A stretch of DNA of 12,346 nucleotides from Candidatus Edwardsbacteria bacterium (lineage in GTDB: Bacteria; Edwardsbacteria; AC1; JBFLXN01). The notes below the pieces were generated by a model that worked only from the letters and a program-made list of their open reading frames with translations, was not told the origin of the DNA and did not search any database. This document shows, one piece after another, positions 2,406 through 8,225 of this stretch. A program made the translations under genes and the position numbers. The DNA is taken from the NCBI GenBank assembly GCA_040755715.1, contig JBFLXN010000014.1:1-12346 (forward strand). Reading direction: 5' to 3'. Numbering within the stretch: the first letter of the stretch is position 1; the number at the start of each line of letters is the position of its first letter.

Positions 2406-2858
2406 TCAATATTCGATAGATACAGATTTCCACTTCTTTTCGGCTCTACTCCCTTTGCCTTGGCGCCCTACTTTTTCTTGAAGAGTAGTCAATCTATTGG
2501 GTCCACGATTACGAATTACCAACCACGACCCACGAGTAGGTCCAGATAATTTAATCTCGGCTCGAGAGTGAGGTCCGAGTTTTGTCTCCTCTAACACATC
2601 ACCTTCTAAGGTAAGCCTTCCATTTTCATCTATCCTGCCTTGACTTTCCATCATAGTAACTTCGAACTGTGAAAGGCGCGGGACCATGCTTTGCAGATGA
2701 TAAACAATCAAATATGGCCACCGCATGCTTCCTTTAATCCTTACTACTTTAATTCCCACTGGGCTTGCGAGATTTAATCCCGCTTCCCTTCGAATATTCG
2801 AAGGAATAGATAATCTACCCTCTTCATCAATTTCGCTAAATCCTTTTAACAGCGGCAT
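2406..2858 (-). CDS. MraZ/AbrB-type double swapped-hairpin (DxxGR-x-xP) DNA-binding protein, putative regulator
   Basis: Two copies of the AbrB/MraZ-type motif are present: [19 protein letters not shown] and [19 protein letters not shown]. The 150-aa length matches MraZ. ATG at 2858 overlaps the dnaK 3' end (stop TAG 2838..2836) by 23 nt. RBS weak. Confidence 0.5.
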
Positions 2859-4602
2859 CTTTTGTTTCTATCTTTAGATTTCTCTTTATCCGTTTAAACG
2901 CATTATAGACAATCTCAACCAGCTTTCTTAATTCATCAATTTTTACCCTGGTCTCTTTATATTCACCCTTGGATAAAGTTGTCTTTATTGCCAGGATTAG
3001 TTTCTCTATTTTTTCTACATCTGACCTATCTATTAGACCCTCTCCTTCTTCCAGAACCATCTCTGCTGCTTGTATCATACTTTCCGCTCGAATGCCCATT
3101 TGAATCTCTTCTTTTCGCTTTTGGTCTTCCTTGGCATGAATTCGGGCATCTTCTATCATCTCGTTAATCTGGTCCTTGGTCAGCCGGGAAGAAGAACTGA
3201 TCTGGATACTTTTTTCATTATCGGTATGTAAATCCAAGGCTCTGACTTGTAAAATCCCATTGGCATCTATATGGAATGTCACCTCAATCTGAGCTTCACC
3301 CCTTCGACCGGGTGGAATATCAGTAAGCTCAAACTTACCCAGACTTATATTATCGAAGCTCAGGAATCTCTCTCCCTGCAAGACATGGATATCGACCTGA
3401 GTCTGGTTATCTTTAGCTGTCGTAAATATCTGACTGCTGGATGTAGGAATGGTGGTATTTCTTTCTATGATCTTAGCAAATATCCCTCCCTCAGTCTCAA
3501 TTCCTAAAGAAAGGGGAGTAACGTCTAACAATACCACATCTTTTATTTCCCCAATCAAGATATTGGCTTGAATTGCTGCGCCAAGAGCCACTACCTCATC
3601 CGGATTTATATCCTTATAAGGTTCTTTGCCCAGAAGCTCTCGAGCGAGCTTTTGCACAGCAGGCATTCTGGTGGAGCCTCCTACCAAAACTACCCTGTCT
3701 ATCTGGCCGGGGTTGAGCTTTGCATCAGAAAGGACCTGTTTAGTAGGCTCTATCATCTTCTCTAATAAATCCCTGGTTAGCTCTTCAAACTGCTCTCTAC
3801 TCATAGTCAGATGCAGATCCATATCTTGTATGAGAAATGGGATTCTGATATCTGCAAACCTTTTTGTGGAAAGTTCTTTTTTTGCCTTCTCTGAAGCCTC
3901 TTTCAACCGCTGTAAAGCCACCCTATTTCTTCTTACATCCACTCCATGCAACTTCTGAAAATTATCAGCCAAATAATCCATTATCCTCTGGTCCCAATCA
4001 TCTCCGCCAAGATGTGTATTTCCCCCTACTGCCTTCACCTCAAACACGCCATTGCCCAACTCTAAAATAGATACATCGAAAGTGCCTCCACCCAAATCCC
4101 ATATTAGAATATAGTGTATATCCTGCTTGTGTAAGCCGTAGGCCAGGGAAGCAGCAGTAGGTTCATTTATAATCCGCATTACCTCTAATCCGGCTAAGGC
4201 GCCTGCCTCCATAGTCGCCTGGCGCTGGTTATCATTAAAATATGCAGGAACTGTAATTACTGCTTTCTCTATTTTCTCGCCCAAATAATCTTGCGCATCT
4301 TCCTTGACCTTACGAAGGATTAAGGCCGAAATCTCTTGGGGGGTAAATTTTCTCTCGTCAATCTCTACCCCATAATCAGTGCCCATCCGACGTTTAATAG
4401 ATGCAATGGTACGTTCTGGATTTGCAACTGCCTGGGTTCTGGCAAGATTGCCTATCAGCTGCCTCCCTCCATCGGCAAAGGCAACCACTGAAGGAGTAAG
4501 CCTTCCGCCTTCAGCATTGGGTATAATCTCAGGCCTCCCATTGTTTATAAAGGCGGCTACTGAAAAGGTAGTGCCTAAATCTATTCCTATTACCTTACTC
4601 AT
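2836..4602 (-). CDS. dnaK: Hsp70 molecular chaperone DnaK (589 aa)
   Basis: The canonical N-terminus is [18 protein letters not shown]. Actin-like ATPase motifs are present: [12 protein letters not shown] and [13 protein letters not shown]. The substrate-binding domain and helical lid follow. The ATG at 4602..4600 is preferred over the track's upstream extension ([10 protein letters not shown]...). That extension overlaps the preceding gene and precedes the conserved Hsp70 start. ATGA overlap with the stop of ORF 4599..5672. Confidence 0.95.
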
Positions 4603-5672
4603 TTGGCTACCTGGGCTATTTTCTTCTTTAACCGTGGGCTGACCCAGCCGCAGTTTACGCAACCCTTTTCTAATAGCTCTAAGGCGTTTGCCTTTTTTCC
4701 GCATTGAGGGCAGGCTTCTGTTCTTTCTCTAAATGATATGATTCGGGTAAGCGCCCTCTCCCACTCATACATTCCCTCTCCTGAAAAAGAGGCAACCTTT
4801 CTTTGAGAACCACCTTCACCCAGCCCTTGCGCGCAAGAGCTGGGTTCATATATTACGTCAAAGACCTTTTTCTTCTTTAATACCGGGCTCAAATTCCTTA
4901 CATCTATAGCAGAACCTAATATCTTTTCTGAAGGGACTTCAAAAGCCAATCTCTTTTCAAAATCATACCACCAGCATAATCTCTTATTTGTTATATACAG
5001 ATGACCGGGCTTCCAGATACCATCTGATGAGGCCATATGCCAGGCCTTGCCCTTGTGAGTAATCGTTTCTCCTTCTGTCAGGAAATCTAATGTCTCTTCC
5101 TCATATTCGGGTAGAATAAGGTTTTCATCAATTATAAGTCCGCCTAACTTTATCGCCTCTTTTATAGACTCACCTAATTTATCTATCTCCACAGACCGCA
5201 GACGCGCTAATCTATCATCCTTAAGAATAAGTAAGAGCGTATCTTCTTGTATCAAGAGCCCCTTTATCTCATCTAAAGAGGTTTGAAACATCACTTCATT
5301 AAGCTCTTGATTCATGAGCAGCAGTCTTTTATCAGTTAAATAAATCTGCCCCGGTCTCCAACTAACATAGATTCCTTTGGCATAAAAAAAAGAGCCCAAC
5401 ATCTTAAGTTTAAGCTCTTCTCCCTGGATTAAAGAAATCTCTTTTTTAGCTCTATTATCTTTTTCCCAGGCGCGAATCTTCTCATCCCATGCCTTCATCA
5501 TGCCATACTCGAGCATAGTCTCCATGCCGGCCAGGGCGGCTCTTAAATTAACACCGATTAAAGGGATGCCCGCCACAGAGATGATAATGTCAGCGTTGAT
5601 CACCAACCCCTTATCCAGGACCCTATCCAATAAATCAACCAATGTGACCCGTGCATCTCTGGTTGGCTCCAT
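4599..5672 (-). CDS. GvpA/J-family gas vesicle shell domain fused to two GRAM/PH-like domains and a C-terminal zinc ribbon (357 aa)
   Basis: N-terminal [48 protein letters not shown] is a textbook GvpA core (compare canonical [44 protein letters not shown]). Two GRAM-like units follow ([19 protein letters not shown]... and [17 protein letters not shown]...). The C-terminus [25 protein letters not shown] is a zinc ribbon nearly identical to the C-terminus of ORF 7469..7819. ATG at 5672 has AAAGGAG upstream. Confidence 0.8.
4819..4844. repeat. Second copy of the 26-bp palindrome (CCCAGCCCTTGCGCGCAAGAGCTGGG, 25/26 identical), in frame inside the GvpA-GRAM-ZnR gene
   Basis: On the minus strand it encodes PSSCAQGLG, between the second GRAM domain and the zinc ribbon. 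It is flanked by ttca.../...ttcata, as the other copy is. Confidence 0.75.
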
Positions 5673-5757
5673 ATGTCGCTTCGCTCCTTTATCAGAATTC
5701 AGAAGTCAGATTTTTCTATCCTCTGTCCTCTGTTACCTGTTTTTCTATGCTTTGGCT

Positions 5758-7468: not shown

Positions 7469-7819
7469 TCATTCTGCCTTTATATCTTTTGCCTTGGCGC
7501 TTACCCAGCCACACCAGGGACAGCCCTCATCAAGTAATTCTTCTGCCAGAACTTTTTTGCCGCACTGTGGACAAAGTTCTTTACCCTTCATGGCTTCTTT
7601 CCAGGCTTCTGTTTCCACATTAGTCCCTGATGGAAACTCAAGGCCATACTTTGCTGCTGTCTCAAAAGAAGCCAGGGCTGCCCTTATCTTAATTCCCAAA
7701 AGCTCTACTCCGGCAACAGATATGGCGATATCCGCATTAATCACCAGGCCTTTGTCTAAAACCCGGTCTATGACATCAACCAAAGTAACACTTGCATCTT
7801 TTGTCGCTTCTATTGCCAT
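7469..7819 (-). CDS. gvpA: GvpA/J-family gas vesicle structural protein with C-terminal zinc-ribbon extension (116 aa)
   Basis: [49 protein letters not shown] is the GvpA/GvpJ core. The C-terminus is CPQCGKKVLAEELLDEGCPWCGWVS (CxxC...CxxC). Strong RBS AAGGAGG (7834..7828) sits 8 nt before the ATG at 7819. Whether this is the major GvpA or a J/M-type minor paralog cannot be decided from sequence alone. Confidence 0.85.
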   Translation of the reverse strand: MAIEATKDASVTLVDVIDRVLDKGLVINADIAISVAGVELLGIKIRAALASFETAAKYGLEFPSGTNVETEAWKEAMKGKELCPQCGKKVLAEELLDEGCPWCGWVSAKAKDIKAE

Positions 7820-7827
7820 TTCTATTG

Positions 7828-7834
7828 CCTCCTT
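7828..7834 (-). promoter_or_regulatory. Shine-Dalgarno AAGGAGG for the gvpA-family gene, embedded in the 3' end of the upstream ZnF gene
   Basis: Plus-strand cctcctt at 7828..7834 is the reverse complement of AAGGAGG. It sits 8 nt upstream of the ATG at 7819. Confidence 0.6.
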
Positions 7835-8225
7835 ACCCCGCTACTACACCTTGGCCTTTACATTTGGGGCAAGCCACTGGATGAGGTTTGCGCGGATATA
7901 CCCCACTTCCATTGCAAGTGGTGCATTTTTTAGAAGGTGTCATCCTTGTAACCACCCCTACCCCACCACAGGCTAAACAGTGTATGCGACTTGTAGTATA
8001 TGGGTCTATTCCCTTGCCACCACAAAAATTGCATTTCATTGTCGGGCCAATAATTCTCACCTTACCTTTTCCTAAACACACCTGGCAATCAGAAAGCTTA
8101 GATAAAAGCTGAAAAGGATCTTTTCCTATTCCATTACAAAAGGCGCATATAACTTCCACTTTATTTTTTTCTATTCGCCTAAGCTCCTCAGGTGCAATCG
8201 TAGCCCATTTTGGTTTTTTAGCCAT
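7833..8225 (-). CDS. Stand-alone DnaJ-type cysteine-rich (CxxCxGxG x6) zinc-finger protein, no J-domain
   Basis: There are six CxxCxGxG repeats: CAFCNGIG, CQVCLGKG, CNFCGGKG, CLACGGVG, CTTCNGSG and CPKCKGQG. The DnaJ central domain has four. There is no HPD J-domain motif. Strong RBS GAGGAGGTG before the ATG at 8225. It sits 13 nt upstream of gvpA. Confidence 0.7.
   Translation of the reverse strand: MAKKPKWATIAPEELRRIEKNKVEVICAFCNGIGKDPFQLLSKLSDCQVCLGKGKVRIIGPTMKCNFCGGKGIDPYTTSRIHCLACGGVGVVTRMTPSKKCTTCNGSGVYPRKPHPVACPKCKGQGVVAG

What the first reader, a model, noticed from the sequence alone, without database searches (positions are those of the whole stretch)
2836..8225. Dedicated Hsp70 / DnaJ-cysteine-rich-only / Hsp20 set wired into the shell-protein genes by overlapping start and stop codons
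The dnaK ATG overlaps the TGA of the GvpA-GRAM-ZnR gene as ATGA. The six-repeat CxxCxGxG protein, which lacks an HPD J-domain, ends 13 nt before the gvpA-family gene and contains that gene's AAGGAGG Shine-Dalgarno. The Hsp20 (gvpH) and gvpK also overlap by ATGA. A J-domain-less DnaJ zinc-finger module paired with a cluster-specific DnaK is unusual. The zinc-finger domain of DnaJ binds substrate independently of the J-domain, so this protein could act as a holdase handing GvpA to DnaK.
Basis: partly seen in the sequence, partly recalled or inferred. Interest (0 to 1): 0.7.

Follow-up and report, generated by a model that had tools for sequence, protein, structure and literature searches.

The report
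Gas-vesicle gene cluster with own Hsp70
This gas-vesicle gene cluster from an uncultured anaerobe carries its own DnaK (Hsp70), a small six-repeat DnaJ-type zinc-finger protein and Hsp20s, and close relatives show that the 'missing' J-domain is fused to a GvpF/L assembly protein just beyond the window, which points to an undescribed Hsp70 system dedicated to building gas vesicles.

Summary
All genes lie on the minus strand. The ATGA overlaps (gvpJ/M-like gene with dnaK; hsp20 with gvpK) and the 13-nt gap with a TAAGGAGG junction before gvpA are real.

The 130-aa CxxCxGxG protein has no J-domain and is not a frameshifted DnaJ.

The interpretation needs one correction: the system is not J-less. 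In every sufficiently long relative, a 340-aa GvpF/L protein with a C-terminal J-domain (invariant HPD) lies upstream. In the 97%-identical Nitrospirota locus it sits about 1.5-2.5 kb beyond the window edge. The window organism's own copy (P0143) occurs in the same sample.

Gvp-linked DnaKs are at least 57% identical to the window's. They form one clade across phyla and follow the gvpJ/M-like-GRAM gene directly or within two genes. They lack neighbouring dnaJ and grpE and have a basic instead of the conserved acidic C-terminal tail.

The zinc-finger family is large and uniformly J-less.

The likely function is a "split DnaJ" plus dedicated DnaK that chaperones hydrophobic GvpA-family proteins. 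This is inferred, not shown.

A second housekeeping dnaK could not be checked. No paper found describes this arrangement. I rate it a new variant of a known kind, interest about 0.7.

The parts
2836..4602 (-). dnaK, gvp-cluster type, 588 aa
   Evidence: Pfam HSP70 scores 714 bits. NCBIfam PRK00290 scores 792, above its cut-off of 648; TIGR02350 scores 774, below its cut-off of 822. Catalytic residues, J-contact residues (R167, N170, T173, Q378) and the linker are conserved. It lacks the E. coli-type NBD insert and the acidic C-terminal tail.
4599..4602 (-). ATGA start/stop overlap between the GvpJ/M-like gene and dnaK
   Evidence: Seen in the sequence. Conserved only in L008/L009; other relatives have 21-57 nt gaps.
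4599..5672 (-). GvpA-family (GvpJ/M-like) domain, GRAM-like repeats and C-terminal zinc ribbon, 357 aa; immediate upstream neighbour of dnaK in most gvp-linked loci
   Evidence: Pfam Gas_vesicle 62 bits, weak GRAM hit. Best NCBIfam match is GvpM. Directly adjacent to dnaK in L002, L004, L008-L014, L109, L144 and L171; separated by gvpO and a zinc-ribbon gene in L015.
5758..6522 (-). gvpF/L, 254 aa, GTG start, GTGA overlap with gvpK
   Evidence: Pfam GvpL_GvpF 221 bits. Junction read. Gene call on the source contig agrees.
6519..6836 (-). gvpK, 105 aa
   Evidence: Pfam GvpK 68 bits.
6833..7420 (-). Hsp20-domain protein, 195 aa (a Pro/Gly/Lys-rich N-terminal half, as read from the translation, plus a C-terminal alpha-crystallin domain); ATGA overlap with gvpK
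   Evidence: Pfam HSP20 24.2 bits, cut-off 20.8. NCBIfam archaeal Hsp20 73 bits, below its cut-off. 65-74% identical in relatives.
7469..7819 (-). gvpA-family shell protein with a C-terminal CxxC...CxxC zinc ribbon, 116 aa
   Evidence: Pfam Gas_vesicle 61 bits. Follows the zinc-finger gene by 13-19 nt in L002, L004, L008 and L013.
7828..7834 (-). AAGGAGG Shine-Dalgarno of gvpA, overlapping the last two bases of the upstream TAA stop
   Evidence: Seen in the sequence.
7833..8225 (-). Free-standing six-repeat CxxCxGxG (DnaJ-type) zinc-finger protein, 130 aa, no J-domain
   Evidence: Pfam PF00684 43 bits, no PF00226. All six motifs and a GKDPFxLLSxLS segment are conserved in 21 homologs. AF2 pLDDT 84. 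Best fold hits are the DnaJA3 zinc finger, BSD2 and Anti-TRAP, all weak.
8326..8901 (-). GvpG-like protein, 191 aa, upstream of the zinc-finger gene; this excludes a frameshifted J-domain
   Evidence: Pfam GvpG 38 bits. Separated by a 100-nt spacer with GGTGAGGAGGTG before the ATG.
8931..10895 (-). Tandem ArsA/Get3-family ATPase, 654 aa, conserved in this cluster type
   Evidence: Pfam ArsA_ATPase 465 bits. TIGR00345 463 bits. Present in L002, L004, L008, L010, L013, L014 and L173.
2406..2858 (-). MraZ/AbrB-like two-repeat protein, 150 aa, overlapping the dnaK 3' end by 23 nt
   Evidence: Junction read. Weak MraZ hits. 57-79% identical directly downstream of dnaK in L002, L004, L008, L010, L013 and L021.
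597..1598 (-). Second Hsp20-domain protein, 333 aa, with a GRAM-like N-terminus
   Evidence: NCBIfam Hsp20 70 bits; Pfam HSP20 hit is weak. Conserved in L010, L013 and L014.
12158..12346 (-). C-terminal end of a further gvpF/L gene, cut by the window edge. By colinearity with L008, the GvpF/L-J-domain fusion gene lies about 1.45-2.5 kb further on.
   Evidence: Pfam GvpL_GvpF. blastn places window 12173-12346 on L008 2728-2901 at 99.4% identity. The L008 J-GvpF/L gene is at 254-1276.

Best explanation
The region is the chaperone core of a distinctive gas-vesicle (gvp) operon found in uncultured, mostly anaerobic bacteria. The closest relatives are labelled Nitrospirota and Thermodesulfovibrionales.

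The operon encodes its own Hsp70 system in split form:
(i) a DnaK paralog or xenolog that travels with the gvp cluster;
(ii) a J-domain that sits not on a DnaJ but on the C-terminus of a GvpF/L assembly-factor paralog, encoded just outside this window;
(iii) one or more free-standing six-repeat DnaJ-type zinc-finger proteins, inferred to bind three Zn;
(iv) Hsp20-domain proteins.

Proposed mechanism (inferred):
- The GvpF/L moiety binds newly made, very hydrophobic GvpA/J/M-family shell proteins, or sits at the growing vesicle.
- Its J-domain recruits DnaK-ATP and triggers hydrolysis, so that DnaK clamps the client.
- The zinc-finger protein and the Hsp20s act as ATP-independent holdases. They stand in for the substrate-binding part of a class-A DnaJ.
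- Nucleotide exchange depends on the host GrpE, because none is encoded in the cluster.
- The cluster's ArsA/Get3-like and CDC48-like ATPases act before or after this step.

Shown here: gene content, conserved order, monophyly of gvp-linked DnaKs, an intact J-domain, intact J-responsive residues in DnaK, and the J-less nature of the zinc-finger family.

Inferred: all physical interactions, the identity of the client, and the holdase activity.
For: Cluster identity:
- The window carries gvpA, gvpJ/M-like, gvpF/L, gvpG, gvpK and gvpO.

J-GvpF/L fusion:
- It is present in L002, L004, L007, L008, L010, L013 and L173.
- HPD is invariant in 15 diverse members.
- The AF2 model has pLDDT 89.5. Residues 1-250 match GvpF crystal structures 6L5D and 4QSG (E 2e-15). 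The C-terminus matches J-domains at 1.2-1.5 A, including 5NRO_B.
- The window organism's copy, P0143, is 95% identical to the L008 protein. It is in the same sample (SRR29635779) and carries the same MAG label and 27,293-bp contig length as the exact DnaK, P0022.

DnaK:
- The 14 full-length loci whose DnaK is at least 57% identical to the window's are all gvp-linked.
- About 74 loci with DnaK at or below 59% identity sit in ordinary operons. Nearly all have dnaJ downstream and 64 of 74 have grpE. None of the 93 gvp loci has grpE.
- The gvp-linked DnaKs form one clade in a neighbour-joining tree (12 distinct sequences, no intruders, against 76 others).
- The DnaK keeps D8, K70, E171, D194, T199, D201, R167, N170, T173, Q378 and the VVLLD linker. 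It has a basic tail in place of the conserved acidic one.

Zinc-finger protein:
- 65 distinct small CxxCxGxG ORFs occur in gvp loci. 51 have exactly six strict repeats and none has HPD.
- They occur in about 32 of 35 J-GvpF/L loci that have at least 5 kb of upstream flank.
- A profile search finds 378 representatives at E<=1e-10. Of the best 150, 147 match PF00684 and none matches PF00226.

Context from the literature:
- GvpA is aggregation-prone and proteotoxic, and the assembly factors 'chaperone' it (PMC12848028).
Against: - No experiment or structure prediction of a complex links DnaK, J-GvpF/L, the zinc-finger protein and GvpA.
- The J-GvpF/L gene is not inside the window. Its placement on the same contig rests on a matching contig length, label and sample, not on sequence read here.
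- Many J-GvpF/L loci (about 40% identity class: L122, L128, L134, L136, L145, L150, L154, L157, L161) have no dnaK within 10 kb. A dedicated DnaK is therefore optional.
- The Actinomycetota version (L014) has the DnaK but no zinc-finger gene at the syntenic spot. The three parts are thus not an obligatory triad.
- A second, housekeeping dnaK in the same genomes was not demonstrated.
- Fold matches of the zinc-finger model are not significant (best E 0.05).
Confidence: 0.7

Rival explanations
1. DnaK works here without any J-domain. The J-less zinc-finger protein alone captures GvpA and hands it to DnaK.
For: The window contains no J-domain. The zinc-finger gene lies directly before gvpA in the closest relatives.
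Against: A canonical J-domain with HPD is encoded in the same operon in all long relatives, and almost certainly in this organism too. DnaK retains the residues that contact a J-domain. From established knowledge, productive Hsp70 cycles require J-domain stimulation.
Confidence: 0.08
2. The dnaK is the organism's only, housekeeping Hsp70 and merely neighbours the gvp genes.
For: It is a complete, apparently fully functional DnaK that passes the NCBIfam PRK00290 cut-off.
Against: - The gene keeps the same position, at or next to the gvpJ/M-like-GRAM gene, across loci with 57-100% DnaK identity. These loci carry labels from different phyla.
- The gvp-linked copies are monophyletic.
- No dnaJ or grpE lies nearby, unlike 64 of 74 ordinary loci.
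- The conserved acidic C-terminal motif is lost.
- It lacks the NBD insert typical of E. coli-type DnaK although its hosts are labelled Nitrospirota. The taxonomic meaning of that insert is own knowledge.
Confidence: 0.06
3. The chaperone set does not assemble vesicles. It performs quality control, disassembly or recycling of shell protein together with the CDC48-like unfoldase. Alternatively it regulates the operon, for example by DnaK titrating the MraZ/AbrB-like protein encoded right after it, as DnaK titrates sigma-32.
For: A CDC48-like double AAA+ sits immediately upstream of J-GvpF/L in nearly all loci. The MraZ/AbrB-like gene is translationally coupled to dnaK and conserved in the Nitrospirota-type loci.
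Against: The J-domain is fused to GvpF/L, an assembly factor and minor vesicle component, which points to action at the assembly machinery. The MraZ-like gene is absent from the Actinomycetota loci, which still keep the DnaK. Sequence data cannot separate assembly from disassembly.
Confidence: 0.12
4. The six-repeat zinc-finger protein is not a chaperone. It is a structural or regulatory zinc protein, for example an Anti-TRAP-like binder or a partner of the zinc ribbons on the GvpA-family proteins.
For: Pfam Anti-TRAP 35 bits, above its cut-off of 32. The best local fold match is Anti-TRAP (prob 0.97 over 33 residues). Both GvpA-family proteins in this cluster carry unusual zinc ribbons.
Against: It co-occurs with J-GvpF/L in about 32 of 35 loci. 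The closest full-length analogues are the DnaJ cysteine-rich domain and BSD2, both of which bind clients. One family member is fused to an ArsA/Get3 ATPase.
Confidence: 0.15

Closest known systems
Canonical bacterial DnaK-DnaJ-GrpE system (class-A J-protein DnaJ)
   Same: The DnaK has a complete nucleotide-binding domain, linker, substrate-binding domain and lid, and keeps its J-contact residues. The system has a J-domain with HPD and CxxCxGxG zinc-finger repeats.
   Different: - The J-domain and the zinc-finger module are on two separate proteins.
- The J-domain is fused to GvpF/L.
- The zinc-finger protein has six repeats rather than four, and has no G/F region and no DnaJ C-terminal domains.
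- No grpE or dnaJ lies in the operon.
- The DnaK tail is basic rather than acidic.
Dedicated Hsp70/J pairs such as HscA-HscB (Fe-S cluster assembly) and the DnaK-like EutJ of the ethanolamine microcompartment operon
   Same: A specialised Hsp70 is encoded inside the operon of the pathway it serves, and its J-protein carries a client-specific targeting domain (own knowledge of HscA/HscB). HscA and EutJ models give secondary hits.
   Different: This protein is a true DnaK-type Hsp70. Its PRK00290 score is above cut-off, while HscA and EutJ scores are far below theirs. The targeting domain is GvpF/L and the presumed client is a gas-vesicle shell protein.
BSD2 and other J-less DnaJ-type zinc-finger proteins (plant Rubisco assembly factor); Anti-TRAP
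   Same: These are small free-standing CxxCxGxG zinc-finger proteins without a J-domain. BSD2 acts as a dedicated assembly chaperone of an oligomeric complex. They are among the top fold hits (6EKB, 8ILB, 3LD0). Three family members hit Pfam BSD2_CRD.
   Different: BSD2 and Anti-TRAP have four and two CxxC-type motifs respectively (own knowledge); this protein has six. Sequence and fold similarity are weak (E 0.05-0.1). This one sits in a gvp operon together with a DnaK and a J-domain protein.
Classical gvp clusters (Halobacterium gvpACNO/DEFGHIJKLM, Anabaena, Bacillus megaterium, Serratia)
   Same: The window has gvpA, gvpF/L, gvpG, gvpJ/M-like, gvpK and gvpO homologs plus an Hsp20-like protein. 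An hsp20 next to gvp genes was noted for the Hakuba actinobacterium (PMC7325909).
   Different: - There is no GvpN in the window, and relatives carry a CDC48-like AAA+ instead.
- The cluster adds DnaK, J-GvpF/L, zinc-finger proteins and tandem ArsA/Get3 ATPases.
- The GvpA-family proteins carry zinc ribbons.
- None of the papers found mentions an Hsp70 or a J-domain in a gvp cluster.

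Membership tests
Hsp70/DnaK | Actin-like nucleotide-binding domain with catalytic residues (E. coli D8, K70, E171, D194, T199, D201) | tested here: met
   All are conserved in an alignment with E. coli DnaK. Pfam HSP70 E 1e-214.
Hsp70/DnaK | Hydrophobic interdomain linker and J-domain contact residues (R167, N170, T173, Q378, VLLLD) | tested here: met
   R, N, T and Q are conserved, and the linker reads VVLLD.
Hsp70/DnaK | Substrate-binding beta-domain and helical lid | tested here: met
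   Colinear with Geobacillus DnaK 2V7Y over residues 1-502 and with E. coli DnaK to residue 594. Pocket residues F426, A429, Q433, V436 and I438 are conserved; M404 is E.
Housekeeping dnaK operon (grpE-dnaK-dnaJ) | dnaJ and/or grpE adjacent to dnaK | tested here: not met
   No J-domain or GrpE hit lies next to dnaK in any gvp locus, while nearly all of the 74 ordinary loci have dnaJ and 64 of 74 have grpE.
Housekeeping dnaK operon (grpE-dnaK-dnaJ) | Conserved acidic C-terminal tail (DVVDAEF-type) | tested here: not met
   The tail is K/R-rich (…[21 protein letters not shown]), and this holds in all gvp-linked copies aligned.
Housekeeping dnaK operon (grpE-dnaK-dnaJ) | Only dnaK copy in the genome | not testable with these tools
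   The source is an 11.6-27 kb metagenomic contig. The single genome-collection scan used query-specific peptides.
DnaJ (class-A J-protein, Hsp40), asked of the 130-aa protein | N-terminal J-domain with HPD | tested here: not met
   No PF00226 hit. No HPD in the sequence (read from the translation and the alignment). None of the 150 family representatives has PF00226.
DnaJ (class-A J-protein, Hsp40), asked of the 130-aa protein | Cysteine-rich domain with four CxxCxGxG repeats, flanked by C-terminal domains I and II | tested here: not met
   It has six repeats and no DnaJ_C. PF00684 scores 43 bits, but DnaJ equivalog models score at most 37 bits against cut-offs above 338.
J-less DnaJ-type zinc-finger proteins (BSD2 or Anti-TRAP type) | Free-standing CxxCxGxG zinc-finger module without a J-domain | tested here: met
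   PF00684 and PF15777 both score above cut-off. Fold hits are BSD2, Anti-TRAP and the DnaJA3 zinc finger, all weak. Zinc binding itself was not tested.
J-domain proteins (class C), asked of the GvpF/L-J fusion outside the window | Helical J-domain fold with an invariant HPD loop | tested here: met
   PF00226 is precomputed for the listed J-GvpF/L hits. HPD is invariant. The model superposes on J-domains at 1.2-1.5 A.
GvpF/L, asked of the fusion protein and of window 5758-6522 | GvpF two-domain alpha/beta fold; PF06386 | tested here: met
   Window protein scores 221 bits. The fusion model matches 6L5D and 4QSG with target-normalised TM 0.77-0.85 and E 2e-15.
Small heat-shock protein (Hsp20), asked of window 6833-7420 | Alpha-crystallin domain | tested here: inconclusive
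   Pfam scores 24.2 bits, just above its 20.8 cut-off, covering profile positions 1-87 of 102. NCBIfam Hsp20 scores 73 bits, below its 140 cut-off.
Gas-vesicle gene cluster | gvpA together with gvpF/L, gvpG, gvpJ/M, gvpK, gvpO and gvpN | tested here: inconclusive
   All are present except gvpN. Relatives carry a CDC48-like AAA+ or, in L007 and L173, an AAA_5 (GvpN-like) protein. Vesicle formation is untested.

The most novel reading that the evidence does not exclude
In a broad set of uncultured anaerobes, gas-vesicle biogenesis is an Hsp70-driven process. The source labels include Nitrospirota, Omnitrophota, Atribacterota, Scalindua, Acidobacteriota, Marinimicrobia, Dehalococcoidia and Actinomycetota. 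A GvpF/L-J-domain fusion acts as the client-targeting co-chaperone. Free-standing six-repeat zinc-finger proteins supply the holdase half of a 'split DnaJ'. In one lineage a co-transferred, dedicated DnaK completes the machine. This would be the first Hsp70/J system dedicated to a bacterial protein-shelled organelle. The domain fusion would also argue that GvpF/L is a GvpA-binding adaptor.
Probability: 0.5. Interest if true: 0.85.

Novelty: new variant of a known kind. Interest (0 to 1): 0.7.

Why it matters
- How the extremely hydrophobic GvpA shell protein is kept soluble and inserted into a growing vesicle is still unresolved, as is what GvpF/L does.
- A J-domain fused to GvpF/L, a cluster-borne DnaK and J-less DnaJ-type zinc fingers together give a concrete hypothesis that can be tested biochemically: GvpF/L acts as the substrate adaptor of an Hsp70 cycle.
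- There is a practical side. Heterologous gas-vesicle expression for ultrasound reporters is limited by GvpA aggregation and proteotoxic stress (PMC12848028). A natural cluster that brings its own chaperones is a candidate parts list for improving it.
- It also adds a new architecture to the J-protein repertoire, and a large, uncharacterised family of six-repeat zinc-finger proteins (378 representatives at E<=1e-10).

Tried and rejected
(1) Frameshifted or split DnaJ. Rejected. The upstream gene is GvpG-like, the spacer has its own Shine-Dalgarno, and the whole family is short and J-less. tblastn with J-domains against the window finds nothing.

(2) Search for a second dnaK in the same genome. 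It therefore returned gvp-type copies plus unrelated ordinary DnaKs, and no second copy from MAG042 or Yes46-09. The question stays open.

(3) L019, a second 65%-identical DnaK in the same Actinomycetota MAG as L015. It is N-terminally truncated next to an IS transposase at a contig end, so it is uninformative.

(4) Fold search of the zinc-finger model against the PDB. There are no significant hits (best E 0.05), only suggestive ones: DnaJA3 zinc finger, BSD2 and Anti-TRAP.

(5) Promoter and terminator scan. Counts equal those of shuffled sequence, and no minus-strand terminator lies inside the cluster. This fits one long operon but is not evidence for it.

(6) The overlaps as the key feature. 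Rejected as the conserved signal, because they exist only in the closest relatives.

(7) Literature. Eight searches found no description of an Hsp70 or J-domain in gvp clusters. The combinations included gas vesicle with Hsp70, DnaK, DnaJ, J-domain, GvpF, GvpL, ArsA, Scalindua and Hakuba. The Scalindua rubra and Hakuba papers mention only gvp genes and hsp20.

(8) An obligatory DnaK / J-GvpF/L / zinc-finger triad. Rejected. Many J-GvpF/L loci lack a nearby dnaK, and the Hakubella locus has the DnaK but no zinc-finger gene at the syntenic position.

Full report
**1. What is in the window**

All substantial ORFs lie on the minus strand. Pfam and NCBIfam give the following order in the direction of transcription:

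- gvpF/L, C-terminal end only (12158-12346)
- GIY-YIG gene (11725-12021)
- gvpG (11444-11728)
- double zinc ribbon (11233-11439)
- gvpO (10938-11207)
- tandem ArsA/Get3-family ATPase (8931-10895)
- GvpG-like 191 aa (8326-8901)
- six-repeat CxxCxGxG protein, 130 aa (7833-8225)
- GvpA with a zinc ribbon (7469-7819)
- Hsp20-domain protein (6833-7420)
- gvpK (6519-6836)
- gvpF/L (5758-6522)
- GvpJ/M-like domain with GRAM-like repeats and a zinc ribbon, 357 aa (4599-5672)
- dnaK, 588 aa (2836-4602)
- MraZ/AbrB-like 150 aa (2406-2858)
- zinc-ribbon protein (1783-2235)
- GRAM-like/Hsp20 protein, 333 aa (597-1598)
- 88-aa ORF (331-597)

This is a gas-vesicle operon unusually rich in chaperone-type genes.

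**2. Check of the observation**

The junctions were read directly.

- The dnaK ATG (4602-4600) overlaps the upstream TGA as ATGA.
- hsp20 and gvpK overlap as ATGA.
- The zinc-finger gene ends with TAA (7835-7833), 13 nt before the gvpA ATG (7819).
- The AAGGAGG (7834-7828) begins within the stop codon.

Such overlaps are common in operons (own knowledge). Here they are conserved only in the nearest relatives (L008/L009). Other relatives have gaps of 21-57 nt before dnaK. Gene order is what is conserved. A consensus promoter and terminator scan gave nothing above shuffled expectation.

**3. Source and relatives**

- The exact DnaK and zinc-finger proteins are on an 11.6-kb metagenomic contig (Logan SRR29635779).
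- The identical DnaK (P0022) is also in an NCBI MAG labelled 'Candidatus Edwardsbacteria bacterium', on a 27,293-bp contig.
- The DnaKs at 97% identity are labelled Nitrospirota, and one at 88% is labelled Thermodesulfovibrionales.
- blastn shows the window is colinear with Nitrospirota MAG042 (L008) at 90-99% identity, apart from a roughly 445-nt insertion carrying the GIY-YIG gene.

**4. The missing J-domain**

The window has no J-domain. However, related loci that extend far enough upstream (L002, L004, L007, L008, L010, L013, L173) encode a 340-aa protein with Pfam GvpL_GvpF plus DnaJ (PF00226).

- Translation shows a C-terminal J-domain with ...KNHPDK....
- HPD is invariant in 15 diverse members.
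- An AF2 model (pLDDT 89.5) matches GvpF crystal structures over residues 1-250 (6L5D, 4QSG; E 2e-15). It matches many J-domains over about 54 C-terminal residues at 1.2-1.5 A, including the DnaJ J-domain bound to DnaK (5NRO_B).
- In L008 the order is: CDC48-like AAA+, J-GvpF/L, GvpF/L, GvpF/L, GvpG, and then the genes of the window. The fusion gene should therefore lie about 1.45-2.5 kb beyond window position 12346.
- The organism's own copy, P0143, is 95% identical to the L008 protein. It is found in the same sample and carries the same MAG label and contig length as P0022.

The system is therefore not J-less. The J-domain has moved onto a gas-vesicle assembly factor.

**5. Is the DnaK dedicated?**

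I ran tblastn with the window proteins against all fetched loci.

- Every locus with a full-length DnaK at least 57% identical to the window's is gvp-linked. These are L001, L002, L004, L008-L015, L109, L144 and L171. L021 holds a partial 80% copy next to zinc-finger and MraZ-like genes. L019 holds a truncated 65% copy without gvp neighbours (see tried and rejected).
- These loci include Ca. Hakubella thermalkaliphila and another Actinomycetota MAG.
- In most of them the GvpJ/M-like-GRAM gene lies directly upstream of dnaK. In L015, gvpO and a zinc-ribbon gene intervene.
- The roughly 74 loci with DnaK at or below 59% identity are ordinary operons. Nearly all have a dnaJ J-domain 0.2-1.3 kb downstream, and 64 of 74 have grpE. 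None of the 93 gvp loci has grpE.
- In a neighbour-joining tree the gvp-linked DnaKs form one clade of 12 distinct sequences with no intruders. The sampling is biased by how the loci were retrieved.
- Contig lengths shared between the DnaK hit list and the J-GvpF/L lists indicate at least 18 contigs that carry both genes.

The protein is a complete Hsp70.

- Its catalytic residues, the J-contacting R167/N170/T173/Q378, the VVLLD linker and the substrate pocket are conserved.
- It lacks the roughly 24-aa NBD insert of E. coli-type DnaK.
- It replaces the conserved acidic C-terminal tail with a K/R-rich one.

All this argues for an accessory copy that travels with the gvp cluster. I could not verify directly that the same genomes hold a housekeeping dnaK, because the only genome-collection scan used query-specific peptides. 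The absence of grpE from the cluster suggests dependence on a host exchange factor. That would imply a resident Hsp70 system, but this is inference.

**6. The zinc-finger protein**

- Its 21 closest homologs are all 90-141 aa and keep six CxxCxGxG motifs and a conserved GKDPFxLLSxLS segment.
- The AF2 model has pLDDT 84. Fold hits are the DnaJA3 zinc-finger domain, BSD2, Anti-TRAP and the E. coli DnaJ cysteine-rich domain, none of them significant.
- In the gvp loci I found 65 distinct small ORFs with at least three strict motifs. 51 have exactly six, and none has HPD.
- These ORFs occur in about 32 of 35 J-GvpF/L loci that have enough upstream flank, often as two paralogs.
- A profile search of 1.84 billion representatives gave 378 hits at E<=1e-10. 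Most of these are 100-180 aa long.
- Of the best 150 hits, 147 match PF00684 and none matches the J-domain. One is fused to an ArsA ATPase.

The frameshift rival is therefore excluded. The family is genuinely J-less and is a regular component of this type of gvp cluster.

**7. Distribution**

- The J-GvpF/L fusion is widespread. The 120 listed best hits include 119 with PF06386+PF00226; one, a truncated sequence, shows PF06386 only.
- Source labels include Nitrospirota, Omnitrophica, Atribacteria, Euphemobacter, Scalindua rubra, Dehalococcoidales, Acidobacteriota and Marinimicrobia.
- Nearly all of the 80 metagenome loci retrieved show a J-domain match, usually with a CDC48-like AAA+ directly upstream.
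- The dedicated DnaK is seen only where a full-length GvpJ/M-like-GRAM gene is present. Many loci of the roughly 40% identity class have no dnaK within 10 kb. There the J-domain presumably recruits the host DnaK.
- The Hakubella locus has the DnaK but no zinc-finger gene at the syntenic position.

The three parts are therefore modular rather than an obligatory triad.

**8. Mechanism**

The best-supported reading is a gas-vesicle-dedicated Hsp70 cycle with a 'split DnaJ'.

- GvpF/L-J targets DnaK to shell-protein clients or to the assembly site.
- The zinc-finger protein and the Hsp20s act as holdases.
- The host GrpE resets DnaK.
- The ArsA/Get3-like and CDC48-like ATPases act alongside.

The gene content, conserved order, fusion architecture and intact functional residues are shown. 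The interactions, client identity and holdase activity are inferred. GvpA's hydrophobicity and proteotoxicity, and the 'chaperoning' role of assembly factors, are documented (PMC12848028).

The rivals are scored in their own section: J-independent hand-off, housekeeping DnaK, a role in quality control or regulation, and a non-chaperone zinc protein.

**9. Novelty**

Searches of the held literature found no description of an Hsp70, a J-domain or a DnaJ-type zinc finger in gvp clusters. The Scalindua rubra paper lists only '11 gas vesicle synthesis proteins'. The Hakuba paper notes only hsp20 beside gvp genes.

Dedicated Hsp70/J pairs and J-less zinc-finger chaperones are known kinds (HscA/HscB, BSD2). 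I therefore rate this a new variant of a known kind, and of real interest to gas-vesicle and chaperone researchers.

Noticed in passing
window 11725-12172 (GIY-YIG gene 11725-12021, minus strand): A roughly 445-nt segment carrying a 98-aa GIY-YIG protein is absent from the otherwise 90-99% identical Nitrospirota MAG042 locus L008. It looks like a recent insertion of a homing-endonuclease-like gene between gvpF/L and gvpG. Its stop overlaps the gvpG GTG start by 4 nt.
   Followed up: partly
window 7469-7819 and 4599-5672: Both GvpA-family proteins end in CxxC...CxxC zinc ribbons. The 357-aa one (best NCBIfam match GvpM) also has two GRAM-like repeats. Zinc-ribbon fusions to shell-protein homologs are conserved in all related loci.
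   Followed up: partly
window 8931-10895; L004 13930-16080; L008 17292-19574: A tandem ArsA/Get3/TRC40-family ATPase (TIGR00345, 463 bits) is a constant member of this cluster type, and relatives carry a second copy. One representative of the zinc-finger family is fused to an ArsA_ATPase domain. This hints at a Get3-like role in handling hydrophobic shell protein.
   Followed up: partly
L002 1221-3392, L007 8941-11067, L173 7829-9982 and most of L093-L172: A CDC48-like double AAA+ ATPase (CDC48_N, CDC48_2, two AAA domains) sits immediately upstream of the J-GvpF/L gene in nearly all loci. A classical GvpN (AAA_5) is seen only in L007 and L173.
   Followed up: partly
window 2406-2858: An MraZ/AbrB-like protein with two repeats ([10 protein letters not shown]... 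and [10 protein letters not shown]...) overlaps the 3' end of dnaK by 23 nt. It is conserved (57-79% identity) right after dnaK in the Nitrospirota-type loci and absent from the Actinomycetota loci. It could be a regulator or a DnaK partner.
   Followed up: partly
L144 13646 onward and L171 17163 onward: Two gvp-linked DnaKs (57-58% identical) carry a different roughly 24-aa insertion (GRRAYLDLDSLGD...) at the same NBD position where E. coli-type DnaKs have their insert. The other gvp-linked DnaKs have none.
   Followed up: no
P0022 versus P0023/P0024/P0026: The identical DnaK is labelled 'Candidatus Edwardsbacteria bacterium', while 97% and 88% relatives are labelled Nitrospirota and Thermodesulfovibrionales. 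The taxonomic label of the source MAG may be a binning or classification artefact.
   Followed up: no
model of P0143, residues 248-255, 256-316 and 331-338: In the AF2 model the J-domain helices are followed by a final beta-strand (…DFIxVEII) at residues 331-338. I did not check whether this strand packs back onto the GvpF/L sheet, which would make the J-domain an inserted loop domain rather than a simple tail.
   Followed up: no
L019 7490-9566: A second gvp-type DnaK in an Actinomycetota MAG is N-terminally truncated next to an IS transposase at a contig end.
   Followed up: yes
L173 (Ca. Scalindua rubra MAYW01000009.1): A published, named genome shows the same architecture: CxxCxGxG protein, Hsp20, CDC48-like, J-GvpF/L, a Volactin-domain protein, GvpF/L, GvpG, DZR, GvpO, ArsA, GvpG-like and GvpA. 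The contig ends before the position where dnaK would be.
   Followed up: partly
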